Shown piece by piece: positions 10,617 through 27,741 of a stretch of DNA of 64,000 bases (the first letter of the stretch is position 1; each line of letters begins with the position of its first letter). The stretch is taken from the IMG/VR virus record IMGVR_UViG_3300045988_133395; one strand, given 5' to 3'. This stretch comes from a virus. A program made the position numbers and the translations under genes. The notes under the pieces were generated by a model that was not told where the DNA came from, ran no database searches, and saw only the letters and a program-made list of their open reading frames with translations.

Positions 10617-11027
10617 ATGGAAAATTTCTTACAAATGTTATCACAAATTTTTGAGGTATGCGTAATTCCATTATTAGGAATTTTAACAGCTTACTTAGTA
10701 CAGTATATCGCAACAAAAAAAGATGCTTTAATTAAGCAGAATGATAATGCTTTAGCAGCAAAATATATCACAATGTTATCAAAGACAATTACTGATTGTG
10801 TAATTGCCACAAATCAAACATATGTAGATAGCTTAAAAGCCCAAGGAAAATTCGATGCCGAAGCTCAGAAAAAGGCATTTAACATGACCTTAACTGCAGT
10901 TCTTTCTATTTTGAATGACGAAGCGAAAGAATACTTGACAGCAATCTATGGCGATTTAAATACATACATTACAAAACAAATTGAAGCGGCTGTTAATAAA
11001 AATAAGACAACTATTGAACCTAAATAA
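10617..11027 (+). CDS. hypothetical protein with N-terminal transmembrane helix
   Basis: 136-aa ORF, GGAGG RBS; hydrophobic segment VCVIPLLGILTAYLVQYIA. Confidence 0.45.
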   Translation: MENFLQMLSQIFEVCVIPLLGILTAYLVQYIATKKDALIKQNDNALAAKYITMLSKTITDCVIATNQTYVDSLKAQGKFDAEAQKKAFNMTLTAVLSILNDEAKEYLTAIYGDLNTYITKQIEAAVNKNKTTIEPK

Positions 11028-13164: not shown

Positions 13165-13677
13165 ATGATGAAAAGACTTTGCGAAATGAAAAATTGTTTA
13201 ATTAGTGCGGCCCAATCTCAAATGTCTAATCTTCAGAATTGTGACGCTGAAGAATTAGGCGAAGTTATTGATATGATTAAGGATATTGAACAAGCTATTT
13301 ATTATTGTACAATCACTAAAGCTATGAAAGAAAAATCTGACGATGAAGAACCTCAGAGAATGTACTATAAAGAAAGTATTCGTAAGAAAAAACGTAATGT
13401 ACCTATGGACTATTATGATAGATACGAAGATGAAGATGAAAGAGAATATCCAATTAAAATATACGACAGTCGTGAAGGTAAAAGCCCTGAGCGCAGACGT
13501 ATGTATATGGAATCCAAAGAGCTTCATCATGACCAAGCTAAAAAATTAAAAGAACTTGAAGAATATATGCAAGAACTTAATGCAGATATTCTCGAAATGA
13601 TTGAGGGTGCAAGCCAAGAGGAAAAACAGTTACTTCAAAAGAAAATTGCTTTATTAGCAACTAAAATAAATGTTTAA
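13165..13677 (+). CDS. hypothetical highly charged protein
   Basis: 170-aa ORF, Lys/Glu/Asp-rich, start overlapping previous stop. Confidence 0.45.
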   Translation: MMKRLCEMKNCLISAAQSQMSNLQNCDAEELGEVIDMIKDIEQAIYYCTITKAMKEKSDDEEPQRMYYKESIRKKKRNVPMDYYDRYEDEDEREYPIKIYDSREGKSPERRRMYMESKELHHDQAKKLKELEEYMQELNADILEMIEGASQEEKQLLQKKIALLATKINV

Positions 13678-13990
13678 AATTAATGGGGATAATTGGCGAG
13701 TCGTCTTTGTATCCCCATATCACCCAATGCTTAAAAAGAAAGATGGCTCTTATACTCTTGGAGCTTGCGTTGATGATACAAAGAAAATTTATATTAATAA
13801 TAAACTTTCTCTCGAAAAAGTTAAACAAGTTTTATGCCATGAAATAACACACGCCGCAATGTTTAGTTATGATATTCAATTAACCTATGACCAAGAGGAG
13901 CTATTAGCCGATTTACTCGCTACTTATGGACAAGAGATAATTGATATAACTAATAAGATTTTTTCTAAGATAAAAAATAATAGGGGATAG
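13670..13990 (+). CDS. small HExxH zinc-metallopeptidase-like protein (SprT/zincin-like)
   Basis: 106-aa ORF containing VLCHEITHAAMF (HExxH followed by AA, SprT-like signature). Confidence 0.4.
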   Translation: MFKINGDNWRVVFVSPYHPMLKKKDGSYTLGACVDDTKKIYINNKLSLEKVKQVLCHEITHAAMFSYDIQLTYDQEELLADLLATYGQEIIDITNKIFSKIKNNRG

Positions 13991-14018
13991 AATTTAATTC
14001 TATCCCCTCTTTTTTATT
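13980..14018. terminator. bidirectional rho-independent terminator between convergent modules
   Basis: aggggatagaatt|taattctatcccct palindrome with T-runs on both strands; separates + structural block from - block. Confidence 0.65.
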
Positions 14019-14668: not shown

Positions 14669-15685
14669 TTAGAATGGCCAACTCATAGTACATTCATTTG
14701 CATATACTCCATTATCAGCTTCTAATGAAGCATCAGTTCTTTTTACCATGTCCAAATAAAATTGAGAATTTGGATTGTTAAAGAATATTCCTGGTACGTA
14801 TGAAGATTTACTTACAATAACTGGAATATATTCTGGTTTAAATAAATAATATAAATAATTAGAAAAAATATCCGCGCTCGGCAATGTTCTTCCTTCAAAT
14901 TTAAAATATTTATATCCCATACTATTATACTTTTGGATATCTTCCCAGGTTAAGTTATTCTGTTTTCCAAGAGTATCAGGGTCATTAATACCACCTTGAA
15001 TTTGACATTTTGTAGTAATACTATATTTATGTTTACCATATGTCAAATTAGTTTTACTTGTATCGAGATAATGTAATTTTCTAACAGGACAATGGCTATG
15101 ACAAATTGCATTTGATAAAAACTCACATTTACCTCGTAACTCTTGAGGAATATTTTCAAGCATATCCATATCTTTATTTAAGTTATAGTCCAAACAAACT
15201 TGATAATAGTCTGGATTTTGGAGTTCTTTAAGAAAGTTTTCTTTGTTTAAACATTTAGTTGTAGAACTAATATATTTAAAGTCTGGATAATTTTCTCTTA
15301 AATACTGTTCCAAAAGAGGAGAATTTACAACAACCTCATTATTGCCATCTTCAAGTAATCTCATTTGAAGATTACAGAATGGGTCATATATATCTTCTTC
15401 CTCAATTGCGGAATTGGTAAAAATTAATCTCATAGGAATATTATAGAACTTATAAAAATCTCTAATTTTTTCAATTTCTTCCTTTGTGACCTGGCGATAA
15501 AATGGAAAGTTTCTGCCGCCGTCCCAAGTACAAAATGGAAAGTTGCCAAAGAAGGTTCCAATTTTAATTCCATCTCTAAAGTATTCAGGATTTGTGTCAC
15601 GCAATTCCAAAATAAATTTATTTAAAGTAAAGTGTTCGTAAAATCCGGATAAATTATAATAAATCATTTTTAAGCCCTCTCTCAA
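14669..15685 (-). CDS. Cys-rich protein of unknown function, paralog of next gene (rSAM-locus accessory protein)
   Basis: 338-aa ORF; GNFPFCTWDGG and CEFLSNAICHSHC clusters; shares GNFP...C..GG segment with 15654..16445; translationally coupled. Confidence 0.5.
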   Translation of the reverse strand: MREGLKMIYYNLSGFYEHFTLNKFILELRDTNPEYFRDGIKIGTFFGNFPFCTWDGGRNFPFYRQVTKEEIEKIRDFYKFYNIPMRLIFTNSAIEEEDIYDPFCNLQMRLLEDGNNEVVVNSPLLEQYLRENYPDFKYISSTTKCLNKENFLKELQNPDYYQVCLDYNLNKDMDMLENIPQELRGKCEFLSNAICHSHCPVRKLHYLDTSKTNLTYGKHKYSITTKCQIQGGINDPDTLGKQNNLTWEDIQKYNSMGYKYFKFEGRTLPSADIFSNYLYYLFKPEYIPVIVSKSSYVPGIFFNNPNSQFYLDMVKRTDASLEADNGVYANECTMSWPF

Positions 15686-16445
15686 ATAAATTAATCATCA
15701 ATGTATAGCTTTCATTTGAATCTTCTGGAATAATGTCATCAAACATAACATATGAGAAATCTTTTGGAATACTTCTATACTCTTCAAAGAATTCATCATC
15801 GTCTTTATAAAATCTTTTAGCACAATTTCTAAAAGTAGAATGACCACTATATTCAAGTATATAATGAGATTCTTCAGATAAACAATCGCAATAATTTACA
15901 CAATCTCTACATTTTGTAAAACTCATTAAGTAAATCTTTTGTACACCTTTTACTTTTAAATGAGCGTAACGTCTTGGTAGGATTATATATTTGATATTTT
16001 TACAATTATCAATCTTATCTTGAATCTCTTTTAAATTATATCTCAATAAAGCATTTTGATGCAATGCAATTTGAATATTAGGATAACGTTTTACTACATA
16101 ATCAATCAAGTTAAAATCTGCAATCTCATAGTATGCAGAATTATTATTTTCCCATTCTTCAAATAATATCTTATCAAAACGATTTAGATATTCTTTCTCA
16201 TTAAGGAAGAGGTTGCCGCAGTCAACAAATAACATCTTAGATGGTATTGAATAACTATTTACACAACCTATAATATCATCATACAGTGCAAAATATCTGG
16301 TGTCTAAGGCATTAATCCCACCGCACATAATGTTAGATGGGAAATTGCCCTCGATACCTTTGATTTTTACTGTATTGCTATACATATCTAAAATATTAAC
16401 ATTATCTTCAAAATTATAATAAATAGATGGCAATATAAAAATCAT
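15654..16445 (-). CDS. Cys-rich protein of unknown function (rSAM-locus accessory protein)
   Basis: 263-aa ORF; EGNFPSNIMCGG and CRDCVNYCDC cluster; 32-nt overlap with downstream gene. Confidence 0.5.
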   Translation of the reverse strand: MIFILPSIYYNFEDNVNILDMYSNTVKIKGIEGNFPSNIMCGGINALDTRYFALYDDIIGCVNSYSIPSKMLFVDCGNLFLNEKEYLNRFDKILFEEWENNNSAYYEIADFNLIDYVVKRYPNIQIALHQNALLRYNLKEIQDKIDNCKNIKYIILPRRYAHLKVKGVQKIYLMSFTKCRDCVNYCDCLSEESHYILEYSGHSTFRNCAKRFYKDDDEFFEEYRSIPKDFSYVMFDDIIPEDSNESYTLMINLFERGLKNDLL

Positions 16446-16477: not shown

Positions 16478-17152
16478 TTATTTTACATAAAGAAGGTCTA
16501 CCTTACTCTCAATATTTTTTTCTATATCTAATATTTCATTGTCTGTTGGATATTCTTGAATACTATAAAACAAATGATAAATACTATATTGGAATCTATC
16601 CCATTCTGCGGCTGTTAAGAACTTTTTATAATCAACTACAGAATTTCCAATGCAAATTCCATATAAAACATTATCTTGGAACAAACTGAAATCATCAAAA
16701 TAAGTTGCATTTAAAAGATAAATATACTTATTCATATTAGATAAAACATCATCTTTATAATCTGTATATCTTAGTTCTGGAGCATATTCTTTTAATAGGA
16801 CTAAAAACAACTTATTCAAGCACATTTCTTCAATCGTATTTTCATCTTCATCAAAGAAGCCTTCAACAGTAGTATTTTTAATTCGCTTTATTAAATCATT
16901 ATTAGACAAAATAATAAAGTTTTTTATATGAGTAAAATGCTCTCTTTCTTTATCATCAAGCATAAAATAATAGATATAATAAACTTTTAATCTGACTGAC
17001 TCAAGTACATCATCCGCAGTATTAAGTTTACCAAGTCTGAAATCTAACTCATCTATTAATACAAATTGTTTCTTAAACATAATATCTTGAGTTAAATCAA
17101 AAATAGAAACTTCATCAGTCATACAAGTATCTGTTGATAATATCTCTTGCAT
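16478..17152 (-). CDS. hypothetical protein in rSAM operon
   Basis: 224-aa ORF overlapping start of upstream rSAM gene by 38 nt. Confidence 0.45.
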   Translation of the reverse strand: MQEILSTDTCMTDEVSIFDLTQDIMFKKQFVLIDELDFRLGKLNTADDVLESVRLKVYYIYYFMLDDKEREHFTHIKNFIILSNNDLIKRIKNTTVEGFFDEDENTIEEMCLNKLFLVLLKEYAPELRYTDYKDDVLSNMNKYIYLLNATYFDDFSLFQDNVLYGICIGNSVVDYKKFLTAAEWDRFQYSIYHLFYSIQEYPTDNEILDIEKNIESKVDLLYVK

Positions 17153-18509
17153 ATTTTATAAACTCCCTTCTTTCTTTTGGAATTTTCAAATCATTTAGAA
17201 TAATATCATAAACGCCATATTTTTCAGCTATATCATTAACAGTACGATATTTAGTTTTAAACATTTCACATACTTCATCAATAGCACAGAAAAGTTCTTT
17301 TCTATCTTCATATTGCGCTCCTAAACAACCTTTCATACAGAAGCTTTTAATAGGACAGCCTGCACATTTCATAAAAGAACGATTTTGATTAAGAGTCTTA
17401 ATTTTATATGCAAGCATAGGATTTTCTCCACGAACTCCAATAATCTTAGTTTTATTTTCATTTAATTCAAGAAAACCATAAACTTTATCAGGATAACAAG
17501 TTCTATGACAAGGTACAACTGCTAAGTCTCCGACTCTAAAAATTGAACCGCCTTGAATTGAACATGGCAACTTATGTTGAATTTCTGGAAGAGCTAAAGT
17601 ATATGGCTGTACATGATTATATCTTCCAATATTCATCATTCCATCAGAAAAGTTATCTGCCATATGATATGCAAAATCTGTTAAATCTCCATTATGAAGC
17701 GTATTTAAGTCTTTCTCTGCCACATAAAAAAGGAAATCTCTATAATCCTTTAAAGATTCTTCATCCCACTGTTCCGCATTTCTGACCTCTAACATCATTG
17801 GAATTGAATATACTTCACATCCATTTTCCTTCTTAAAGATAACATTATATTTAATAATATTATCAATCCACCAATCATAATTACGTTTATAATTCTTTAC
17901 AAATTCTCTTGTAATCATAGGGTGGCAAGAAAGAGAATACTTTGCAATAAATTTGAAAAACTTATCATAAAATTCGTCTTGCTTTGTTTGACCGTTTCTA
18001 AGTCCTCTTTCAACAGATTCTAACTCTGTTGGTCCATCTACTGAAGCACTTAACCAAAAGCCATTGAAATGTTTTACATCATCTCTGACTCTATTCATCC
18101 AATATTCAACTCTTGCGGTCTTTTCATCATCCATAAGGAAAGACATATTTGTAGGAATAACAAAATCTCTTCTTGGGATATTAGGAGTATTCATTTGATG
18201 CTCGTAAAAAACATTTAGAATTTCTTCCCAATAAGGGATTTGAAAAAACTCACCTGAAAAAATATCAAAAGTTGTATATTTATAATGATTTTCATCAAGC
18301 CAGTCTAATAACAATGCTAAATTTCTAAGAATATTTTCCTTCTTATTGGCTTCTGGAGGATACATTTCATCGCCATGTCTATATAAATAACAATATTCAC
18401 ATTTTTGATTACATATAGATGTAATAATAAATTCAACAGAATTTTCATCTTTATCATATCGTAGTAAATAATTTTTTAAAAGTAAATCTTGCTGTTCTTG
18501 AAATGTCAT
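17115..18509 (-). CDS. radical SAM/SPASM-domain enzyme (anSME-like), paralog 2
   Basis: CNQKCEYC (CX3CX2C) at N-terminus, IFSGEFF (GGE-type SAM motif), SASVDGPTELESVERG (anSME-like), C-terminal Cys clusters CSIQGG...PCHRTC and CAGCPIKSFCMKGC (SPASM). Confidence 0.8.
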   Translation of the reverse strand: MTFQEQQDLLLKNYLLRYDKDENSVEFIITSICNQKCEYCYLYRHGDEMYPPEANKKENILRNLALLLDWLDENHYKYTTFDIFSGEFFQIPYWEEILNVFYEHQMNTPNIPRRDFVIPTNMSFLMDDEKTARVEYWMNRVRDDVKHFNGFWLSASVDGPTELESVERGLRNGQTKQDEFYDKFFKFIAKYSLSCHPMITREFVKNYKRNYDWWIDNIIKYNVIFKKENGCEVYSIPMMLEVRNAEQWDEESLKDYRDFLFYVAEKDLNTLHNGDLTDFAYHMADNFSDGMMNIGRYNHVQPYTLALPEIQHKLPCSIQGGSIFRVGDLAVVPCHRTCYPDKVYGFLELNENKTKIIGVRGENPMLAYKIKTLNQNRSFMKCAGCPIKSFCMKGCLGAQYEDRKELFCAIDEVCEMFKTKYRTVNDIAEKYGVYDIILNDLKIPKERREFIKYARDIINRYLYD

Positions 18510-19930
18510 ACAATACCTCTTTCCGCCATTATTCTGTCAATTTCTTCTTCAACTACATCCATAGCTCCATTATACCACAATGGAATCTCTAATGGATTTG
18601 ATGTTATCCAAGAGCCAGTAATAATATATGAGTCTTGTAAACAACATGATTTATCAACAAAAATAGCAATCGTTTTATCAATTTTGCTCATATCAGTCCA
18701 TTTCTCATCAATGATACCTGCTTTTGCATATTCATATACAAACTTAACATAATCTGTATAAAAGATTTGATGCGGATATAAGATAAGATTATCGAAAGTC
18801 TTTTTAAGATTTAAGAACTGGTCTTTATCATAAATCCAAGCTGATTCATTATTTGTTTGAACGTATTTTGCGGCAAGTCCATTCATATCAGCATGGTCTT
18901 TCATATTATTATGATAATCTACATAATCATCAAACATGCCTCTATGACACATAGTATATTTTCCATCATGAATAGGAACTACTACATGGGAAAATGAACC
19001 GCACCCTCCGCCGCAGAATGGCTTTGAACAATCTAAGCATTTTTTCTTATTAAATGAATTATCATCTCGTAATCTGCCTAATAAGAACTCTACACTTGGA
19101 ATATATGTTTCATAATTTGGAATCCATCCATCTAATTGTTTGATTTTTGGAGTCACCTCTTGGATTGAACGATAAATCTTTGCAACTTCAAGTCCATCCT
19201 CTTTTGTCCATTCTGCTGGAGTTGCATAATTGAAAAGACATGGTAAGAAACACCATTTTCGAGTTTTTCTGTTTTTATAAGGCTGATACATTTCTCTATC
19301 AAAAAATTCAAACCATTCATATGCTTTTTCTGGTGTATCTACAAAATGAAATGTAGGTTTTGAAAAAGTTGGTTTAGTATGAACATATAAATCAATTTTA
19401 GAATCATCAAATTCTAATTCACATAAATCTCTAAAATTCTTTAAGAATCTTTGAGTAACGCCTTTACCTCTTCCCAAATCATTCATCTCTTCAGGCCCAT
19501 CAATTGAGACCTGAAGATCAAAATGAAATTTTTGATTACCATGATAATGTTTAATAATTGTATCAAACAATCTCTTTAAAGATTCAACTTGGTTTGGAAG
19601 AGTAAAATTTGTTGAAGTATCTAATTCATTAAAGTTTGGAAAAGCCTCGACATATTCTTCAAAATGGTCTATAAAACGTTCTATATGAAGAAAAGGTTCT
19701 CCGCCCCATAAAGTAATATGCTTAATGTGTTTATCTGCTTCTGGATCAACATCATAGACTTGTTTAATTTGACTTCCATTTTCAAAATCTTTAGCCAAAT
19801 CATCATCTATTTGTTTTAAACATCCAGTAGCATCTTTACAAATATAACAGTACCCGCAATTAAGGTTACATAAAGCAGTAGTAAATAAAGTTATATTTGT
19901 AAAGTAAATCTTTTCATTATTTTCTATCAT
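18506..19930 (-). CDS. radical SAM/SPASM-domain enzyme (anSME-like), paralog 1
   Basis: CNLNCGYC (CX3CX2C), LWGGEPFL, VSIDGPEEMNDLGRG, C-terminal CLDCSKPFCGGGCGSF...CHRG SPASM cysteines; ATGA overlap with next gene. Confidence 0.8.
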   Translation of the reverse strand: MIENNEKIYFTNITLFTTALCNLNCGYCYICKDATGCLKQIDDDLAKDFENGSQIKQVYDVDPEADKHIKHITLWGGEPFLHIERFIDHFEEYVEAFPNFNELDTSTNFTLPNQVESLKRLFDTIIKHYHGNQKFHFDLQVSIDGPEEMNDLGRGKGVTQRFLKNFRDLCELEFDDSKIDLYVHTKPTFSKPTFHFVDTPEKAYEWFEFFDREMYQPYKNRKTRKWCFLPCLFNYATPAEWTKEDGLEVAKIYRSIQEVTPKIKQLDGWIPNYETYIPSVEFLLGRLRDDNSFNKKKCLDCSKPFCGGGCGSFSHVVVPIHDGKYTMCHRGMFDDYVDYHNNMKDHADMNGLAAKYVQTNNESAWIYDKDQFLNLKKTFDNLILYPHQIFYTDYVKFVYEYAKAGIIDEKWTDMSKIDKTIAIFVDKSCCLQDSYIITGSWITSNPLEIPLWYNGAMDVVEEEIDRIMAERGIV

Positions 19931-19961: not shown

Positions 19962-21203
19962 TTAAAAATCAACGCCTTCTACGGTATAGCTACTATGAAC
20001 TACAAAGCATCGTTTATCAACATTGCTAAAGTTACCAGTATTAACAGAATTAAAATTACTGCTATTTACACCAGCGAAATTGCTCGGACAAGTATTTACA
20101 CTGGAATCATTTGTACTAAAATTACTTGGACAATTTGAGGTAAAGAAACCTGTATATCCAGTAGCATTTCCAGAATAATTAGAAGCATTATCTCCTACAC
20201 ATTGAGTACCAACACTGGAAAAACGAGAAGAATTATTTCCAGAACAGTTAATTGTATGGCCTGTATAGTTAGTATCATTATTTGCAGTATATCCGCCTTT
20301 ATGGAAAGAACTTCTTTTAGCATTATTAACAGTAGTTCTATTAGTGCTATTTTTTCCATTTCCAGAATATTTAGAAGCATTATGTCCCTGGAAATTACCT
20401 CTTTTAATGGCATTACCTGATAACTGGACATCTTTACTTCCATTACCAGCCCAGTTAAATGTCCAATAGGAGTAATGATGATGATATTTTCCAGTTTGGA
20501 ATCCACTATGATTACCATTATGAACTTTTGAAAATTTAGAACTATTACTTCCAAAAGAATTAAAATCTGCGCCATTATTAGTTGCCCATTTAGTACTAAA
20601 AAATCCACTATTAAAAGTATGATGATGCCCACTTCTAAAAGCGTTATTATAGCCGCTTCTATTAGAAGCATTATTACTACTTCGATTAGATGCAAAATAA
20701 CCATTTCTAAAGCCACCAAAATAACCACTTCTATTAGAATCATGACCAATTTCATTAAAACTGGTATTATTAGAGGTTCTATGTACGCCATTATGTCCAG
20801 ATCTATTAGCACTAAAGCTACCAAAACCACTATAATTAGAACTATTAAAACCTCCACGATGACTTGAAAAATGTTCTCGACAAGCTTGTTCCATCATTCC
20901 AATGCTTTTTTCAATTTGAGCCATGGATTTTTTTCCAATTGCGGGAGTACCTTGATTAACTCCAACAGGAACTAAGATTGAAACACCATTTACGAATGAA
21001 ACAGTATTTTTTGTATCTACAACACTTTTAAAAATCTCATTCATAATTTGAGCGCTGGTGATTCTAACACCACCACCAACGCTTCCTCGATTAGAAATAG
21101 CAGAATATCTACCATTCCAAGTTCTAATAGCATCCAATCTATCATAATAATCCTTAATAGTAGAGGCTTGAATTGGCTGACCTGTATATACTATTCTTGC
21201 CAT
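19962..21203 (-). CDS. Ser/Asn/Gly/Phe-rich low-complexity repeat protein, putative substrate of adjacent rSAM enzymes
   Basis: 413-aa ORF with GAGAGGTGA RBS; ~110-aa ordinary N-terminal domain then ~300 aa of degenerate repeats (SNRSGY, FNSGFF, NRSGH...) with many aromatic-X-Ser/Asn triads and five C-terminal Cys each followed by N/D within 3-4 residues (CSGNN, CVGDN, CPSNF x2). Confidence 0.55.
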   Translation of the reverse strand: MARIVYTGQPIQASTIKDYYDRLDAIRTWNGRYSAISNRGSVGGGVRITSAQIMNEIFKSVVDTKNTVSFVNGVSILVPVGVNQGTPAIGKKSMAQIEKSIGMMEQACREHFSSHRGGFNSSNYSGFGSFSANRSGHNGVHRTSNNTSFNEIGHDSNRSGYFGGFRNGYFASNRSSNNASNRSGYNNAFRSGHHHTFNSGFFSTKWATNNGADFNSFGSNSSKFSKVHNGNHSGFQTGKYHHHYSYWTFNWAGNGSKDVQLSGNAIKRGNFQGHNASKYSGNGKNSTNRTTVNNAKRSSFHKGGYTANNDTNYTGHTINCSGNNSSRFSSVGTQCVGDNASNYSGNATGYTGFFTSNCPSNFSTNDSSVNTCPSNFAGVNSSNFNSVNTGNFSNVDKRCFVVHSSYTVEGVDF

Positions 21204-21217
21204 TCAATCACCTCTCT

Positions 21218-21592
21218 TTAAAGTCTTGGATTTGTTTGAAAAGAAATATCTATATAATATTCTGGTGTTTCAGCGGTTTGGTCATAATCTCCTTTTGCAT
21301 TTGAGATAGATGTATATTTAGTAGTTTCAAAAACAACTTTTTCTCCATCTTTAATAGTTATATTCTTAATAGAATTATCAACTCTAAAATATGGAAGAAA
21401 GTCTACTAAACTGATATTATCAAAAGTATTTATATTTTCACCATTATCTGCGGAAATATAAGTAGTAATATATAAAGCCGCTGTAGTTTCTTTCTTACCA
21501 GAATTATCTGGTAATTCTTTTAACTCTAAGCCTTCTGTAAAGCTTTTAATATGGCATTGTAATTCGCCATTATTTATAATTAAAGTGTACAT
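21218..21592 (-). CDS. hypothetical protein
   Basis: 124-aa ORF ending 14 nt before repeat-protein gene. Confidence 0.45.
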   Translation of the reverse strand: MYTLIINNGELQCHIKSFTEGLELKELPDNSGKKETTAALYITTYISADNGENINTFDNISLVDFLPYFRVDNSIKNITIKDGEKVVFETTKYTSISNAKGDYDQTAETPEYYIDISFQTNPRL

Positions 21593-24312: not shown

Positions 24313-24497
24313 TTAAAAAGCTTGCGGCCGCAGATAGGGCAGTATTTAATATGTCTAATATATTCAAATCCTATTCCGCCATCCCAGTCGTTTGCCATAT
24401 ATAAAGTATCATCTGCATCTAATTCTCTACAATATCTACATTCTTCTGCTTGTTTTAAGTATTCTTCTTTGTCGTGCCAGGTTTTATCTGCGCCCAT
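24300..24497 (-). CDS. small zinc-ribbon protein (possible)
   Basis: 65-aa ORF with CRYC...CPIC; overlaps nrdD 3' end by 43 nt. Confidence 0.3.
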   Translation of the reverse strand: MGADKTWHDKEEYLKQAEECRYCRELDADDTLYMANDWDGGIGFEYIRHIKYCPICGRKLFNWEE

Positions 24498-24973
24498 TCT
24501 CTTTTTCCTCCATGCTTAACACGATGTTCAACTTCATCTTGCTTACCAAGATTAAAAGCAGTTTTATAATTTCCTGTTAAATATCCAGTAACTCTTCTAA
24601 GCTGTTGGATATGAGTGCTTCCACAGATAGGACATCTATCATTAAATTCATCTGTGTATCCGCACTCAAGACATGTGTCGTTTGGTACATTAACTGCAAA
24701 ATATGGAATGTCTTTATCCATAGCATAATTTACAATTTGCTCTAATGCTTCAAGATTATTTTTAATACCAGAATCTAATTCAACATAAGTAATACATCCC
24801 GCAGATGAATAACCAGTTAATTGAGATTCAATATCAATCTTTTCAAATGGAGACATTTCTTTCCAAACTGGAACATGAATTGAATTAGTAAAGAATTCTT
24901 TATCACTTACATTTTCAATTACTCCATATTTTGCTTTAAAGTTTTTTAAAGCTTTATAGCAAAGGTTTTCGGC
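24455..24973 (-). CDS. nrdD: anaerobic ribonucleoside-triphosphate reductase, exon 2 (C-terminal part)
   Basis: AENLCYK at start, Zn site CLECGY...CPICG, glycyl-radical motif RVTGYLTG. Confidence 0.8.
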   Translation of the reverse strand, partial: AENLCYKALKNFKAKYGVIENVSDKEFFTNSIHVPVWKEMSPFEKIDIESQLTGYSSAGCITYVELDSGIKNNLEALEQIVNYAMDKDIPYFAVNVPNDTCLECGYTDEFNDRCPICGSTHIQQLRRVTGYLTGNYKTAFNLGKQDEVEHRVKHGGKREWAQIKPGTTKKNT

Positions 24974-25941
24974 CATTCGAACCCTCGGTTTCCCGATATT
25001 TCAAAAGGGGATTAGACTATATTATCATCTTATTATTCTATTACCAAATAATAAGAGCTCTGTCTTTCGGATATAATATCCTACTCTACTCACTTCTTCA
25101 TTATAAATATTTCTTTTATAACTATGTTTTCGATAGTCGTTAGAGAACAAATCCATTGGTTTTGTATTCAGTCAAGTATCTAAACCAATATCCACAACGA
25201 GGTTTTGTTTTTACATTGTGATTACATTGATTTAATATTGTTGTTTTTGTAACGTGTAATTCTCTTGAAGCTTCTCCTACAGAGCCATACATCTTTAATA
25301 GATTGCCCTGTAAATCAAAACTACAAATATGAATTGATTGATTATCATCCCAGCTTTTATCATTTTTAGCAAGACCATCTTTATAAGCATCTTTAGTATT
25401 TTTTGAATTAGTCCCCCATTCAAGATTAGATACTTCAGGGTTTGCTTTATTATTATCTTTATGCATTACTACTGTATAATTATTTGGATTAGGCAAAAAA
25501 GCTTCTGCAACTAAAATATGCACTCTTCTTTGTCTTTGTCCTTCTGGATAGGTTATATTGGAATATAAATATCCATTATTTTTATTTATAAAATTTGCTT
25601 TGGGATAAAATAAATCATTTCCATAATCTTTATAAATATTACCTTTTGAAGAAATATAATCAGTTTCACTTCCATTAATTAATCGTATTTCTTCATTAAT
25701 TTGACTTCTTTTAATTAATTTATCTGTCATTTTTCTACGTGCCATAAAAAATTCACTCTCCTTCTATATTATATGAATTTTTATTATACACGACTGAAAA
25801 CTTGTGTCCAATGAATTTACCCTACGGGATTAACTTGCCTTATTACAGGTTTAGTCTCTCTTATCATCTTATTACGATTGCCCGTTTAACAGAGTAATTT
25901 TTTCACGCAGTCACCTGCGCGACACCCAATCCGAAAAGTTT
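24974..25941 (-). mobile_element. group I self-splicing intron in nrdD carrying HNH homing endonuclease ORF
   Basis: Exon 1 frame reads YYTP then garbage and stops; exon 2 resumes AENLCYK (conserved NrdD YxTPAExLC); exon 1 ends in U, intron ends in G; structured GC-richer flanks; approximate boundaries. Confidence 0.65.
25140..25745 (-). CDS. HNH homing endonuclease (intron-encoded)
   Basis: VHILVAEAFLPNPNNYTVVMHKDNNKANPEVSNLEWGT HNH motif; own GGAG RBS inside intron. Confidence 0.75.
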   Translation of the reverse strand: MARRKMTDKLIKRSQINEEIRLINGSETDYISSKGNIYKDYGNDLFYPKANFINKNNGYLYSNITYPEGQRQRRVHILVAEAFLPNPNNYTVVMHKDNNKANPEVSNLEWGTNSKNTKDAYKDGLAKNDKSWDDNQSIHICSFDLQGNLLKMYGSVGEASRELHVTKTTILNQCNHNVKTKPRCGYWFRYLTEYKTNGFVL

Positions 25942-27741
25942 AGGTGTGTAGTAAACTCCAAAATTAAGCTTATATTCTTCTTTAAATTCCGCACATCTAT
26001 CTTTAAATAACTGTTCAATTCTTTTAGCCAGTTTCATTCCTTCTGAAGTCGTATGGTCTGTGCCAATAAGAATTTGAAGAGTCTCAGCGAGTCCTAACTG
26101 ACCTACCGCTAAAGTTCCATGTTTTAATGCGCTTCTTATTCCTTCCTCTGGAATATACCCCTTCATTGTGCCATTCTCATACATAAAGGCTGCGGCAGAA
26201 GCATCCTGAGAACAAATCCAATCGAAGCGTTCAATCAACATATCTTTTGCCTGATGAATTTTTTCATCTAAAAGAGTCATGAAATATTCAACTGCAAAAG
26301 CTTCTTTTGCATCTTCGCCAGTTAAAGCATATTGAGACATAAAGTTCTGTTTAGCTTCCATTGCTAATGTAGGTAAAATAATTGTTACAGGACAAATATT
26401 TCCACGTCCATCTTTTAACTGACCGAAACCGTTAATATCGTACCCATTGGCAGTTCTGCATCCCATCGTAGAGAAGTAGGTACGAGGGTCGTTGATGTCA
26501 TATCCTGCGTTTCCAGACCAGTCGACATTAGCATAATTTGGGTACAGTCTTGTGGCGGTTGAACGTAATGCGAGTTTAAATAAATCGTAATTTGGGTCTC
26601 CTTCTTCACGATTGACTCCTTTCATACACTGGAAAATTCCACAAGGAAAAATAGAAGTTTTATGAAGCTTTCCAATACCTTTAATAGATACATTTAATAA
26701 AGCCTCTGTTACTAATCTTCCTTCTGGTAAAGTACATGTACCATAGTTAATAGAAGTAAAAGGTAACTGGTTTCCACTTCGAGATTGTAATGTATTAAGA
26801 TTATGATACATTCCTTCTACAGCTTGATAAGTTTCTTTTATTGTCATATCTACGGCATATTGATAAGCTGCTTCATTTCTAACAAATACATCATCATTAA
26901 TAGAAGCATCAGCTTTAATCCACGCCTCTTTTGCATTAGATAAATCAAAATCTTCATAAGTTCCAGCTAATCCAAGCATCTGACCTTTTTGACAATATTT
27001 AATACCATCTAAGAAATGCTTATAAAAACTTCTACGAACATAAGGAACCATGCTCCAATCTAAGTGAGTAGCAGATACTCCTCCAAACTGCTGTAATGAT
27101 TGTAACTGAAATAATACTGCCAAAAGCTGAAAAGCTGTATTAACAGATTGAGCAGGACGAACATCAGTTTGACGAGTGTTAAAACCATCTCTAAGTAAAT
27201 CATCTATAGGTAATGACAAACAATTATGCATTCCAACAGCATAACTATCTAAATCGTGAATATAAATTTCATTGTTTAAATGATTATCTCTTGACATTTT
27301 AGATACAATATAATCTAAAGCATATTTCTTTGTCATAACTGAGCTTGCTTCGCCCATACGTCCACCAAAAGAATGTTCATCTACATTAGCATTTTGATTT
27401 TGAACGTTGCGGGCTTCCAATTTTTCACTATAAGTTTTAACAAAAACTGCCTCATGCTCTCTCTTTGCTTCTTGTTTATATCTATAACGAATATACGCTC
27501 TTGCAACATCTCTTCTTTCAGATTGCATTAATAAATCTTCTACGCAATCTTGAATAGTTTCTACAGAAATAGTTGTCTTAGAGCGTTTAGCCATTTCTTC
27601 AATTTCAGTAGCAATATCTTCTGAAGTATCTGTCTCATAAAGGATTTTATCTACTTCAATCATTGCTCTATTTACTGCATCAATAATTTTTTCTTTATCA
27701 AATGGGACAATATCACCATTTCGTTTTTGAACTTCTAACAT
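25942..27741 (-). CDS. nrdD: anaerobic ribonucleoside-triphosphate reductase, exon 1 (N-terminal part; ORF in track reads through to 25903)
   Basis: ATP-cone-like N-terminus, class III RNR body; ORF continues 13 codons into intron. Confidence 0.8.

What the first reader, a model, noticed from the sequence alone, without database searches (positions are those of the whole stretch)
19962..21203. 413-aa Ser/Asn/Gly/Phe-rich repeat protein with C-terminal Cys-X3-(N/D) motifs
After a roughly 110-aa ordinary N-terminal domain, the protein becomes about 300 aa of degenerate short repeats (SNRSGY, NRSGH, FNSGFF...). It holds dozens of aromatic-X-Ser/Asn triads: FNS occurs four times, plus FSA, FAS, FRS, YNN and others. 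Near the C-terminus are five Cys, each followed within three to four residues by Asn or Asp (CSGNN, CVGDN, CPSNF twice). These patterns are reminiscent of multi-repeat substrates of rSAM-SPASM enzymes. Examples are three-residue cyclophane 'triceptide' precursors, and Cys-to-Asp/Asn thioether ranthipeptides such as the freyrasin CSANDA repeats. Alternatively it could be a disordered or prion-like protein. The DNA here is so low in complexity that three other frames also stay open, but the minus-strand frame has a proper RBS (GAGAGGTGA) and sits in the coupled operon.
Basis: partly seen in the sequence, partly recalled or inferred. Interest (0 to 1): 0.8.

Follow-up and report, generated by a model that had tools for sequence, protein, structure and literature searches.

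The report
Phage repeat protein with dedicated radical-SAM enzymes
This is a real, fast-evolving phage gene for a 413-residue Ser/Asn/Gly/aromatic repeat protein that always sits directly in front of two dedicated radical-SAM enzymes, so it is most likely a protein-sized substrate for peptide-style cross-linking chemistry that has not been described in phages.

Summary
ORF 19962..21203 (-) encodes 413 aa: a ~110-aa N-terminal domain followed by ~300 aa of Ser/Asn/Gly/Phe-rich degenerate repeats.

It is a genuine gene. Thirty-two distinct homologues are all exactly 413 aa with no indels. dN/dS in the repeats is 0.18-0.58, and only this frame stays open in relatives.

The two genes immediately downstream are radical-SAM enzymes. 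One has three invariant C-terminal Cys (twitch-like); the other has the full 7-Cys SPASM motif. The order repeat protein, rSAM A, rSAM B recurs in about 40 divergent phage and prophage loci, with rSAM identity down to 25%. These loci differ in neighbouring genes and genetic code, and one phage carries the triplet twice.

Across the family three elements are kept: the N-domain, ending in an invariant Cys; a central aromatic element; and a short C-terminal strand motif. The repeat arrays between them change completely in sequence, period (5, 6, 8, 9, 13, 24) and length. Some clades add a YcaO enzyme, a LamG domain or adjacent tail-fibre genes.

Best reading: a protein-scale, RiPP-like substrate of the rSAM pair, possibly a virion fibre or adhesin. 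The chemistry is unproven, and it belongs to no known family (triceptide, ranthipeptide, HXS). No matching description was found in the literature searched.

The parts
19962..21203 (-). Gene for the 413-aa repeat protein (whole CDS including the stop codon)
   Evidence: ORF found. There are 32 distinct 413-aa homologues without indels. dN/dS is 0.15-0.58. Only this frame is conserved as open.
21208..21216 (-). Shine-Dalgarno-like GAGAGGTGA, 4 nt upstream of the ATG
   Evidence: Read directly from the sequence.
20874..21203 (-). N-terminal domain (aa 1-110), ending in the family-invariant Cys108. Three predicted helices: 13-28, 51-67, 89-105.
   Evidence: In alignment A3 of 24 divergent members, only M1 and C108 are invariant. 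AlphaFold gives pLDDT 65-72 for the helices. No Pfam, PHROG or PDB homology was found.
20496..20873 (-). Repeat array 1 (aa 111-236): degenerate octads, roughly [N/F]-R-S-G-[Y/H]-x-x-x, with a sub-period of 4
   Evidence: The lag-8 autocorrelation has z=5.0, with lags 24, 32 and 40 also present. RSG[HYF] occurs 4 times against 0.1 expected, and F-x-S is enriched. Aromatic positions are 96% retained.
20394..20495 (-). Central non-repeat element (aa 237-270: GKYHHHYSYWTFNWAGNGSKDVQLSGNAIK)
   Evidence: Nearly invariant in the 413-aa clade. Counterparts are recognisable in other clades. AlphaFold predicts a weak hairpin at 258-268.
20022..20393 (-). Repeat array 2 (aa 271-394), with a ~15-residue (7+8) period in its distal part; contains Cys320, 335, 358 and 372
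   Evidence: Lags 8, 15, 23 and 30 appear in residues 301-413. Cys conservation is shown.
19962..20021 (-). C-terminal tail (aa 395-413: VDKRCFVVHSSYTVEGVDF) plus stop codon. The strand motif aromatic-x-V-E-G-h-D-F is conserved.
   Evidence: The tail is conserved down to 26-29% identical homologues. AlphaFold predicts strands at 395-399 and 406-408.
21218..21592 (-). Small 124-aa protein of unknown function, immediately upstream; a possible accessory or recognition partner
   Evidence: Homologues occupy the same position in L001, L002, L004, L005, L009-L023 and L046. It has no family hits.
18506..19930 (-). rSAM A (474 aa): CX3CX2C cluster at residues 21-28 plus three invariant C-terminal Cys (310, 328, 430). 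Twitch-like, with no N-terminal RRE domain.
   Evidence: Pfam Radical_SAM 1.1e-7. NCBIfam hits cover only the rSAM core and all fall below cut-off. Invariant residues come from alignment A2. The best PDB hit by sequence profile is the triceptide synthase ChlB, at 1.3e-5.
17115..18509 (-). rSAM B (464 aa): CX3CX2C at residues 33-40 plus the full 7-Cys SPASM pattern (C316, C334, C382-x2-C385-x5-C391-x3-C395, C414). Its start overlaps the end of rSAM A by 4 nt.
   Evidence: These residues are invariant in 19 divergent homologues. It matches phrog_1802 at 7e-13. A homologue follows rSAM A directly in every locus that extends far enough, except the weak hit L045.
16478..17152 (-). 224-aa protein of unknown function, fast-evolving; an accessory gene found in the closer clades
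   Evidence: Homologues lie in L002, L004, L005 and L009-L023. It is 64% identical between the window and L004, as diverged as the repeat protein itself.
15654..16445 (-). 263-aa protein, a paralogue of the next gene; part of the extended cassette
   Evidence: jackhmmer links it to 14669..15667 and to homologues in at least 10 clades. Alignment A5 shows three invariant Cys.
14669..15667 (-). 332-aa protein (338 aa from the TTG start at 15685) with a conserved C-x3-C...C motif; part of the extended cassette
   Evidence: There is only a weak Peptidase_U32 hint, in one homologue (E=0.012).
13982..14008 (.). Bidirectional intrinsic terminator closing the leftward operon that contains the cassette
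   Evidence: A 12-bp stem with T runs on both strands.

Best explanation
**What it is.** The 413-aa protein is the dedicated substrate of the two radical-SAM enzymes encoded directly downstream. It is a protein-sized, RiPP-like product of a conserved phage cassette: small protein, repeat protein, rSAM A, rSAM B, plus accessory genes.

**Shown.**
- The gene is real and under purifying selection.
- It has a conserved scaffold: a three-helix N-domain ending in an invariant Cys, a central aromatic element, and a C-terminal strand motif.
- The scaffold flanks two repeat arrays, which are hypervariable between clades but length-locked within a clade.
- Wherever the gene occurs, it is physically coupled to the two rSAM genes.

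**Inferred.**
- The N-domain acts as the docking element for the enzymes, as a leader does. Neither rSAM has its own N-terminal RRE domain.
- The enzymes work iteratively along the repeats and install many intramolecular cross-links.
- In this clade the most plausible chemistry is C-C links at the conserved Phe/Tyr/His positions (F-x-S, R-S-G-Y/H), thioethers at the conserved Cys, or both.
- The effect would be to turn an otherwise disordered Ser/Asn/Gly chain into rigid, protease-resistant loops.

**Possible role.** Three facts suggest the mature protein is exposed and under diversifying pressure, for example as a virion fibre or adhesin. The gene evolves fast, one member is fused to a LamG domain, and tail-fibre genes lie beside the cassette in several clades.
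For: **The gene is real.**
- 23 homologues were found; 19 are exactly 413 aa, down to 64% identity.
- 32 unique 413-aa sequences have no indels, and aromatic positions are 96% retained.
- dN/dS is 0.18-0.58 in the repeats.
- Alternative frames are not conserved.

**The enzymes.**
- Both downstream genes are radical-SAM proteins.
- rSAM B keeps the full 7-Cys SPASM pattern in 19 divergent homologues.
- rSAM A keeps three C-terminal Cys.

**Linkage.**
- A family member sits directly upstream of rSAM A, and rSAM B directly downstream, in nearly all of L001-L044 and in L046-L049 and L051. rSAM A identity falls to 25% across these loci. The few exceptions (L045, L050, L052) are described in the Against line.
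- These loci have different neighbouring genes: DNA metabolism here, a lysin in L006, tail fibres in L008, and a YcaO in L007 and L032. Some use TAG or TGA recoding.
- One 168-kb phage carries two complete triplets. Their enzymes are 45% and 51% identical, and their substrates 27% identical.
- The rSAMs stay 47-54% identical where the substrate has dropped to ~28%. This is the pattern expected of a conserved enzyme with a variable core.

**Repeat arrays behave like motif arrays, not one fold.**
- Periods are 8, 9, 5, 6, 13 and 24 in different clades.
- L053 has a minimal member: an N-domain plus a Cys-rich core of only ~30 aa.

**More peptide-modifying enzymes join the cassette.**
- A YcaO (1.7e-30) lies directly upstream in L032 and L039.
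- A conserved Cys-containing paralogue pair recurs in at least 10 clades.

**Precedent.** The bacterial HXS system has the same four-part logic: a small protein, two rSAMs and a repeat effector that they mature (PMC13128918).

**Exposure or fibre hints.**
- One member carries a Laminin_G_3 fusion (9.8e-24).
- Fibre proteins with a Peptidase_G2 IMC domain lie directly upstream in five clades.
- The repeat protein is the most diverged of 18 syntenic genes (63.7%).
Against: **Weak enzyme assignment.**
- No modification has been observed. The link rests on gene neighbourhood alone.
- The rSAMs resemble known maturases only over the generic rSAM core, and they score far below every curated cut-off.
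- No RRE domain, leader protease or exporter was found among the cassette proteins and neighbours that were scanned.

**No single target residue.**
- Cys ranges from 0.5% to 10.8% of the core across the family, and aromatics from 3.9% to 25%. No one target residue is obvious.
- The X3 Ser of the F-x-S motif is only moderately conserved.

**Exceptions to the linkage.**
- In L052 the gene upstream of rSAM A is a different fibre-like protein without Ser/Asn repeats. In L050 the repeat gene is truncated although the rSAM pair is intact.
- Among the loci scanned for rSAM B, L045 (24% identity, E=1.4e-4) is the only untruncated one with no rSAM B homologue, and its upstream ORF shows no family features.

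**Against a structural role.** In this window the cassette lies at the end of the DNA-metabolism operon, not among the structural genes.

**Structure.** AlphaFold gives no confident structure for the core.
Confidence: 0.62

Rival explanations
1. It is a structural fibre or adhesin (or other virion or surface protein) whose repeats fold on their own, for example as a beta-helical or fibrous shaft. The neighbouring rSAM enzymes would do something else, or merely travel with it.
For: - Strict length conservation, and conserved aromatic and Gly positions, fit a folded repeat structure.
- An 8-residue and a ~15-residue period are of the kind seen in phage fibre shafts (the comparison with fibre shafts is from general knowledge).
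- One member carries a LamG fusion.
- IMC-domain fibre genes lie directly upstream in five clades.
- The gene diverges fast, as receptor-binding proteins do.
Against: - The repeat period is not conserved across the family: 5, 6, 8, 9, 13 and 24. A shared fold is therefore unlikely.
- AlphaFold predicts no repeat fold (core pLDDT 22-35), and Foldseek finds nothing.
- This reading does not explain why two SPASM-type enzymes follow it in ~40 divergent loci, or why the triplet is duplicated as a unit.
- In this window the gene is not in the structural operon.
Confidence: 0.15
2. It is an intrinsically disordered, prion-like low-complexity protein, for example a scaffold for condensates or a sticky matrix in infected cells. 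Its function would come from composition rather than from specific modified residues.
For: - The composition is Ser/Asn/Gly/aromatic, with [S/G]-Y/F-[S/G]-like motifs.
- AlphaFold gives pLDDT 22-35 over residues 111-394.
- Sequence turnover of the core between clades is extreme.
Against: - Thirty-two distinct homologues show no indels, and individual aromatic, Arg, Trp and Cys positions are conserved. This is atypical of composition-driven disorder.
- Clear tandem periodicities are present.
- The gene is obligately linked to the rSAM pair, and in some clades to a YcaO.
Confidence: 0.1
3. It is a phage counterpart of the bacterial HXS-type system: an rSAM-matured repeat effector that acts at the cell envelope, for example to exclude superinfecting phages or to counter a host defence, rather than a virion part.
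For: - It has the same four-part logic as HXS: a small protein, two rSAMs and a repeat effector that needs both enzymes (PMC13128918).
- In this window it lies in the early/middle (DNA-metabolism) operon.
- The core has a net positive charge of +14.
Against: - The HxsB and HxsC models score 22.8 and 19.4 bits, against cut-offs of 370 and 268.
- H-x-S is not enriched: 4 observed against 2.9 expected.
- No peptidoglycan-binding domain was detected. The N-terminus (MARIVYTGQPIQAST...) does not look like a signal peptide by eye; no signal-peptide predictor was run.
- PADLOC gives no hit.
- The gene order differs from HXS.
Confidence: 0.08
4. It is not a functional gene: a chance open frame in low-complexity DNA.
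For: The DNA is of low complexity, and other frames have open stretches of 111-232 codons.
Against: - The frame stays open over 413 codons in 14 of 14 homologous DNAs, while the other frames break up.
- dN/dS is below 1.
- There is an RBS and tight operon spacing.
- The N-domain and C-terminal tail are conserved down to 26% identity, including in TAG-recoded phages.
Confidence: 0.01

Closest known systems
Triceptides (three-residue cyclophane RiPPs: XyeA/GrrA/FxsA-type precursors with 3-CyFE rSAM/SPASM maturases such as XyeB, GrrM/OscB, FxsB, YhhB, ChlB)
   Same: - A repeat-bearing substrate sits next to an rSAM/SPASM enzyme.
- Aromatic-x-x motifs are arrayed in tandem: F-x-S is enriched 2.4-fold, and aromatic positions are the best-conserved class.
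- The only PDB hit by sequence profile for rSAM A is the multiple-cyclophane synthase ChlB (its identity as such from PMC11499958 and PMC12912966).
   Different: - All cyclophane maturase models score 20-37 bits against cut-offs of 310-450.
- The substrate is 413 aa, with a folded ~110-aa N-domain of a new family.
- There are two rSAMs instead of one.
- It is phage-encoded.
- Several clades have few aromatic residues, down to 3.9%.
- No cross-link has been demonstrated.
Ranthipeptides and sactipeptides (SCIFF, freyrasin PapA/PapB; Cys-to-carbon thioethers)
   Same: - An rSAM/SPASM enzyme lies next to a repeat substrate.
- Four C-x2-3-N/D sites are present, and every family member keeps some Cys.
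- PapB and GggB are among the best, though weak, NCBIfam hits.
   Different: - PapB scores 46.4 bits against a cut-off of 340, and the SCIFF maturase 15.6 against 425.
- There are only 5 Cys in 300 residues.
- Two of the four motif Cys are lost in the 64%-identical homologue.
- Enrichment of the motif is borderline (P=0.056).
HXS anti-phage system (HxsD small protein, HxsB and HxsC rSAMs, HxsA His-x-Ser repeat effector; PMC13128918)
   Same: - Four components follow the same logic.
- The substrate is a protein-sized repeat effector, not a short peptide, and its maturation needs two rSAM enzymes.
   Different: - HXS is bacterial (Pseudomonadota) rather than from a Firmicutes-type phage.
- The HxsB and HxsC models are not matched.
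- There are no HxS repeats and no peptidoglycan-binding domain. The N-terminus does not look like a signal peptide by eye (not tested with a predictor).
- The gene order differs.
QhpC/QhpD (the gamma subunit of quinohemoprotein amine dehydrogenase, cross-linked by an rSAM/SPASM enzyme) and anSME with sulfatases
   Same: - These are precedents for SPASM enzymes acting on proteins rather than on leader-core peptides.
- QhpD is the best, though weak, NCBIfam hit for rSAM B.
   Different: - Scores are 27-30 bits against cut-offs of 349-453.
- There is no sulfatase motif [CS]-x-[PA]-x-R: 0 occurrences.
- The substrate is unrelated.
Microcin B17 and heterocycloanthracin-type YcaO substrates
   Same: In some clades (L032, L039, L007, L038) a YcaO gene sits beside a Gly/Ser/Asn/Cys-rich repeat core.
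   Different: - No YcaO gene lies in or beside the cassette in this window; the rest of the window was not scanned for one.
- Those systems have short precursors and no rSAM pair.

Membership tests
Triceptide / 3-CyFE systems | The maturase scores above the curated cut-off of a cyclophane-forming rSAM/SPASM family (XyeB, GrrM/OscB, FxsB, YhhB, AmcB) | tested here: not met
   For rSAM A: YhhB 36.7 against 445; AmcB 32.1 against 425; XyeB 21.1 against 450; GrrM 20.5 against 310; FxsB 19.9 against 370. rSAM B scores lower still.
Triceptide / 3-CyFE systems | The precursor carries repeated aromatic-X-X motifs | tested here: inconclusive
   There are 61 F/Y/W/H residues among the ~300 core residues. 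F-x-S occurs 12 times against 4.9 expected (P~0.001). But [FYW]-x-[SN] is at chance (15 against 15.2), and other clades have as little as 3.9% aromatics.
Triceptide / 3-CyFE systems | A C-C bond links the aromatic ring to C-beta of the third residue | not testable with these tools
   This needs mass spectrometry or NMR of the co-expressed protein.
Ranthipeptide (PapB/SCIFF type) | The maturase scores above the PapB or SCIFF-maturase cut-off | tested here: not met
   PapB scores 46.4 against 340 (rSAM A) and 21.9 (rSAM B). The SCIFF maturase scores 15.6 against 425.
Ranthipeptide (PapB/SCIFF type) | Conserved Cys-X(2-3)-Asp/Asn repeat motifs | tested here: inconclusive
   There are 4 sites against 1.8 expected (P=0.056). 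C320 and C335 are invariant. C358 and C372 are replaced in the 64%-identical homologue.
HXS system | HxsB and HxsC equivalogs are present | tested here: not met
   HxsB scores 22.8 against 370, and HxsC 19.4 against 267.9. PADLOC gives no hit.
HXS system | The effector has tandem His-Xaa-Ser repeats and a peptidoglycan-binding domain | tested here: not met
   H-x-S occurs 4 times against 2.9 expected. The protein has no Pfam domain.
HXS system | Four-gene architecture: a small protein, two rSAMs and a repeat effector | tested here: met
   The order is 124-aa protein, repeat protein, rSAM A, rSAM B. This is a likeness in organisation only.
SPASM-domain radical SAM enzymes | A CX3CX2C cluster plus the C-terminal 7-Cys pattern (C...G-x-C, CX2CX5CX3C, C) | tested here: met
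   In rSAM B, C33/C37/C40 and C316, C334, C382, C385, C391, C395 and C414 are invariant in 19 divergent homologues. The TIGR04085 domain model itself scores only 17.6 against 27. rSAM A keeps only three C-terminal Cys, so it is twitch-like.
Anaerobic sulfatase-maturing enzyme system | An anSME equivalog, and a substrate with the motif C/S-x-P/A-x-R | tested here: not met
   sulfatase_rSAM scores 29.1 against 349. The motif count is 0.
Classical RiPP precursor (leader plus core, RRE-dependent) | A short precursor, an RRE (PqqD-like) domain in or beside the maturase, and a leader protease or exporter | tested here: not met
   The protein is 413 aa. The rSAM clusters start at residues 21 and 33, leaving no room for an N-terminal RRE. 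No protease or transporter was found among the neighbouring genes scanned. An RRE-like fold for the 124-aa protein could not be tested.
Known leader families (Nif11, NHLP) or any Pfam/PHROG family for the N-domain | A significant profile match | tested here: not met
   No hits to the whole protein. For 24 N-domains scanned individually, no family matched more than 2 members, and the best single-member E-values were 0.0024 in Pfam and 0.0023 in PHROGs, i.e. noise. The PDB profile search gave only a coiled-coil-type hit.

The most novel reading that the evidence does not exclude
This is the founding example of a widespread, undescribed class of phage cassettes. In them, RiPP-type enzymes build a protein-sized product: a twitch-like rSAM, a SPASM rSAM, often a Cys-containing paralogue pair, and sometimes a YcaO. 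The product has a conserved three-part hub (N-domain, central element, C-terminal strand). The hub displays two heavily cross-linked, hypervariable repeat loops. The protein would serve as a protease-proof virion fibre or adhesin, or as another host-interaction protein, of gut Clostridia phages. That would be radical-SAM peptide chemistry used to make a phage host-range or structural component.
Probability: 0.3. Interest if true: 0.9.

Novelty: new variant of a known kind. Interest (0 to 1): 0.78.

Why it matters
**For enzymology.** Radical-SAM/SPASM maturases are known almost only from bacterial peptide natural products and a few bacterial proteins. Here a conserved pair sits with a 200-470-aa hypervariable repeat substrate in many large gut phages, including stop-codon-recoded ones. 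If confirmed, this would extend RiPP chemistry to viral proteins. It would also provide two new rSAM families with natural libraries of repeat substrates for study.

**For phage biology.** It may reveal how phages make protease-resistant, rapidly diversifying surface or effector proteins.

**Testability.** The idea can be tested directly by co-expression and mass spectrometry.

Tried and rejected
**Searches that found nothing.**
- Pfam, NCBIfam, PHROGs and PADLOC on the repeat protein gave no hits.
- GenBank phage records gave nothing by DNA or by protein for the repeat protein, and only one weak hit for rSAM A.
- Scanning 24 N-domains individually against Pfam and PHROGs gave only scattered noise. 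The N-domain profile against PDB gave only a coiled-coil-type hit, 3jqh.
- The third homologue search, with the N-domain alignment, returned only 8 proteins because of its word-index limit.
- Literature searches found no description of this cassette. They did turn up the HXS paper and the identity of ChlB.

**Structure prediction.**
- Two AlphaFold runs (12 and 34 sequences) gave mean pLDDT of 29 and 40. Only the N-domain helices reached ~70.
- Foldseek against BFVD and PDB found nothing below E=0.4.

**Ideas rejected or left weak.**
- *A single beta-solenoid fold shared by the family.* Rejected: the repeat period differs between clades.
- *A universal staple between the invariant junction Cys and an acidic residue in the C-terminal tail.* Rejected: several clades have tails with no Asp or Glu at that place, such as FTVSPL and VVQLRN.
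- *Peptidase-U32-like Fe-S enzymes for the 263/332-aa paralogues.* Only one weak hit (E=0.012), and nothing in PDB. Kept as a lead only.
- *HXS membership.* Rejected.
- *Alternative reading frames as genes.* Rejected.
- *An own promoter for the cassette.* The sigma-70 scan is at chance level.
Full report
**1. The observation**

The ORF 19962..21203 on the minus strand encodes 413 aa from an ATG. GAGAGGTGA lies 4 nt upstream of it, directly after the stop codon of the preceding gene.

Residues 1-110 have ordinary composition. Residues 111-413 are 17% Ser, 17% Asn, 13% Gly, 9% Phe, 7% Thr and 6% His.

Against shuffles that keep the composition:

| Pattern | Observed | Expected | Note |
|---|---|---|---|
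| F-x-S | 12 | 4.9 | P~0.001 |
| RSG[HYF] | 4 | 0.1 | enriched |
| aromatic-x-S/N | 15 | 15.2 | not enriched |
| C-x2-3-N/D | 4 | 1.8 | P=0.056, borderline |

The repeats are real. Residues 111-215 have a period of 8 with a sub-period of 4 (z=5; lags 24, 32 and 40 follow). Residues 301-413 have a ~15-residue (7+8) period. Written in rows of eight, the consensus is roughly [N/F]-R-S-G-[Y/H]-x-x-x.

**2. It is a gene**

A search of 5.8 billion proteins found 23 homologues. Nineteen are exactly 413 aa, down to 64% identity. With the IMG/VR loci added, there are 32 distinct 413-aa sequences and not one indel.

- dN/dS against five relatives is 0.15-0.35 in the N-domain and 0.18-0.58 in the repeats.
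- Within the repeats the best-kept residue classes are the aromatics: 96% are retained as aromatic, and W is invariant at 3 of 3 positions. Arg and Cys follow. Ser, Thr, Asn and Asp vary freely.
- The other frames have open stretches of 111-232 codons in the window, but these break up in relatives. Frame 0 is open in 14 of 14 DNAs.

**3. The surroundings**

Directly downstream, on the same strand, lie two radical-SAM genes.

- **rSAM A** (18506..19930, 474 aa) starts 31 nt after the repeat gene. It matches Pfam Radical_SAM at 1.1e-7. It has CX3CX2C at residues 21-28 and three invariant C-terminal Cys (310, 328, 430), a twitch-like pattern.
- **rSAM B** (17115..18509, 464 aa) overlaps the end of A by 4 nt. 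It has CX3CX2C at residues 33-40 and the complete SPASM pattern: C316, C334, C382-x2-C385-x5-C391-x3-C395 and C414. All of these are invariant in 19 divergent homologues.

NCBIfam places both among peptide maturases (GggB, PapB, YhhB, AmcB, QhpD, HxsB and others). The matches cover only the rSAM core, and the scores of 15-57 bits sit far below cut-offs of 170-650. The A profile finds one solved structure, the multiple-cyclophane synthase ChlB, at E=1.3e-5. ChlB's identity comes from PMC11499958 and PMC12912966. Neither enzyme has room for an N-terminal RRE domain.

Other genes around the pair:
- Upstream is a 124-aa protein of unknown function.
- Downstream are a 224-aa protein and a pair of paralogues (263 and 332 aa) with three invariant Cys.
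- A strong bidirectional terminator at 13982..14008 ends the operon.
- Further upstream are RuvC, dUTPase, NrdG, NrdD and a PolIII-alpha-type polymerase. The polymerase is 41% identical to those of Enterococcus phages and SPbeta.

This is therefore a Firmicutes-type phage of roughly 190-200 kb. Related contigs are 120-200 kb.

**4. The linkage test**

I fetched the context of distant homologues of the repeat protein (L001-L004). I also fetched the context of rSAM A homologues down to 25% identity: L005-L008, 37 IMG/VR loci L009-L045, and genomes and MAGs L047-L053.

- rSAM B follows rSAM A directly in every locus that extends far enough, except the weak hit L045.
- A protein with the same architecture lies directly upstream of rSAM A in nearly every locus that could be read.
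- The cassette sits in different neighbourhoods: DNA metabolism here, a lysin and an RNA ligase in L006, tail-fibre genes in L008, and a YcaO in L007 and L032.
- It occurs in phages that read TAG as Gln or TGA as Trp.
- One 168-kb phage contig has two complete triplets. Their A enzymes are 45% identical, their B enzymes 51%, and their repeat proteins 27%. Each substrate thus travels with its own enzyme pair.
- Where the rSAMs remain 47-54% identical, the repeat protein has fallen to ~28%.

There are three exceptions.
- In L052 a different fibre-like protein precedes rSAM A.
- In L050 the repeat gene is cut down to its last ~30 codons, although the rSAM pair is intact.
- L045, a weak hit at 24% identity, has neither a family-like upstream ORF nor an rSAM B homologue.

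The hosts implied by MAGs and by one isolate genome are gut Clostridia: Oscillospiraceae, Neglectibacter and Roseburia.

**5. Anatomy of the family**

Three elements are conserved.

- **The N-domain** (~100-115 aa). In 24 divergent members only Met1 and the Cys at its end (C108 here) are invariant. AlphaFold with 34 sequences predicts three helices at pLDDT 65-72.
- **A central aromatic element.** Here it reads GKYHHHYSYWTFNWAGNGSKDVQLSGNAIK. Counterparts include GKDHHYWLFHASNSFC and SGRYNTNQCYFWGQSGK.
- **A C-terminal strand motif.** It is aromatic-x-V-E-G-h-D-F in this superclade and h-h-D-h-x-N in others.

Between these elements lie two repeat arrays, which are replaced wholesale from clade to clade:

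| Repeat unit | Period |
|---|---|
| TFHS / TVHS | 8 |
| ATFFNGVNYTYFATHCSNYCNPKY | 24 |
| WSQGANGNG | 9 |
| SYGDSNARN | 9 |
| SNGTC / SNGSK | 5 |
| F-S-D/N-C-rich units (L007) | 6 |
| SSNFTSAANKGNF | 13 |

Core length runs from about 30 aa (L053) to 365 aa (L021). All cores are rich in Asn, Ser, Thr and Gly. Cys ranges from 0.5% to 10.8% and aromatics from 3.9% to 25%.

The N-domain has no Pfam, PHROG or PDB relative, and Foldseek finds none either.

Changing periods argue against one shared repeat fold. They fit arrays of enzyme-recognised motifs that grow by tandem duplication.

**6. Extra components**

- A YcaO (PF02624, 1.7e-30) lies directly upstream of the repeat gene in L032, L036, L041 and L039, and nearby in L007 and L038.
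- The 263/332-aa paralogue family recurs in at least 10 clades. One member touches Peptidase_U32 at E=0.012, which is only a lead.
- Fibre-type proteins with a Peptidase_G2 intramolecular-chaperone domain lie directly upstream in L001, L008, L021-23, L026/30/33 and L042.
- One family member (P0159) carries an N-terminal Laminin_G_3 domain (9.8e-24). It still has the small protein upstream and rSAM A downstream.
- Between this window and its 64%-identity relative L004, the repeat protein (63.7%) is the most diverged of 18 syntenic genes, closely followed by the 224-aa gene (64.3%). The rSAMs are 87-89% identical.

**7. Interpretation**

The best-supported reading is that this protein is the substrate of the rSAM pair, a protein-scale analogue of a multi-motif RiPP precursor.

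*Shown:* gene reality, architecture, and obligate and specific linkage to the enzymes.

*Inferred:*
- The N-domain is the docking element.
- The enzymes install many intramolecular cross-links along the repeats.
- In this clade the conserved Phe/Tyr/His and Cys positions are the likely sites.
- The product is a rigid, protease-resistant, fast-diversifying exposed protein, perhaps a fibre or adhesin.

I put 0.62 on the substrate relationship. No single chemistry gets more than about 0.25.

The bacterial HXS defence system (PMC13128918) is a precedent for two rSAMs and a small protein maturing a repeat effector of protein size. Membership of HXS, the triceptides, the ranthipeptides and anSME systems was tested and not met.

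Rivals are given in the structured fields: an unmodified structural fibre, a disordered prion-like scaffold, and an HXS-like envelope effector. The chance-ORF reading is refuted.

**8. Novelty**

No curated family matches the repeat protein or its N-domain. GenBank phages contain no homologue of the repeat protein and only one weak rSAM hit. Six literature searches found no description of such a phage cassette.

The kind of system, an rSAM/SPASM enzyme with a repeat substrate, is known. What appears new is this version: phage-encoded, with a protein-sized substrate built as a conserved hub plus hypervariable repeat loops, two new rSAM families, and optional YcaO and fibre associations.

Noticed in passing
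window 24455..27741 (-): The anaerobic ribonucleotide reductase gene nrdD is split by an HNH endonuclease gene. 25903..27741 carries the ATP-cone and NRDD profile positions 2-414. 25140..25745 is HNH_3. 24455..24976 carries NRDD positions 415-562 with the glycyl-radical motif. The relative L004 has one intact 759-aa NrdD.
   Followed up: partly
L002, L006, L007, L008, L024, L027, L029, L031, L039, L040 (TAG); L044 (TGA): Many phages carrying the cassette use recoded stop codons. In-frame TAG is read as Gln and in-frame TGA as Trp, including inside the repeat-protein and rSAM genes. The window phage itself uses the standard code.
   Followed up: partly
L030 and L040 (both from IMGVR_UViG_3300045988_173030, 168 kb): One phage genome carries two complete triplets of repeat protein, rSAM A and rSAM B, about 36 kb apart. 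The enzymes are 45% and 51% identical, and the repeat proteins 27%.
   Followed up: yes
L032:1126-2931, L039:1383-3173, L007:3-767, L038:8360-9325: A YcaO-family gene (PF02624, 1.7e-30) lies directly upstream of, or close to, the repeat-protein gene in several clades with Cys/Ser/Thr-rich cores. No YcaO gene lies in or beside the cassette in the window; the rest of the window was not scanned.
   Followed up: partly
window 15654..16445 (-) and 14669..15667 (-): These two adjacent genes are paralogues. They belong to a family with three invariant Cys (C-x3-C...C) that co-occurs with the cassette in at least 10 clades. The only annotation hint is a Peptidase_U32 match at E=0.012 in one homologue.
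   Followed up: partly
P0159 (locus L046:273-2279); L001:3-713, L008:3911-5335, L021:3-2114, L026:2968-3291, L042:2039-2911: One family member is fused to a Laminin_G_3 domain. In five clades a fibre-type protein with a Peptidase_G2 intramolecular-chaperone domain lies directly upstream of the cassette.
   Followed up: partly
L050 (Oscillospiraceae bacterium B35_35_AM_H, contig CAJTCS010000012.1), about 4900-4990: Only the last ~30 codons of a repeat-protein gene (...SNGKNTDGSEVDVGNSNGSHSN*) remain in front of an intact rSAM pair. The same genome has a complete copy on another contig (L049). This could be a rearrangement or an assembly artefact.
   Followed up: no
window 16478..17152 (-): The 224-aa gene after rSAM B is as diverged between the window and L004 (64.3%) as the repeat protein (63.7%), while the neighbours are 82-99% identical. 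It may co-evolve with the variable core.
   Followed up: no
window 3505..10605 (+), 10617..11027 (+), 13670..13990 (+): The convergent plus-strand operon carries a 2366-aa tail protein (phrog_5911), a holin (phrog_13712) and a small Peptidase_M78/ImmA-like protein. The cassette therefore abuts the tail and lysis region across the terminator at 13982..14008.
   Followed up: partly
L053:4575-4970 (Bacillota MAG, GC 30%): A miniature family member: a ~100-aa N-domain followed by a Cys-rich core of only ~30 aa (CYCGTQSTNGTTGNCSTDDCSTSTCDTNYTMGR), next to an rSAM A homologue. Its proportions are those of a classical leader and core.
   Followed up: no
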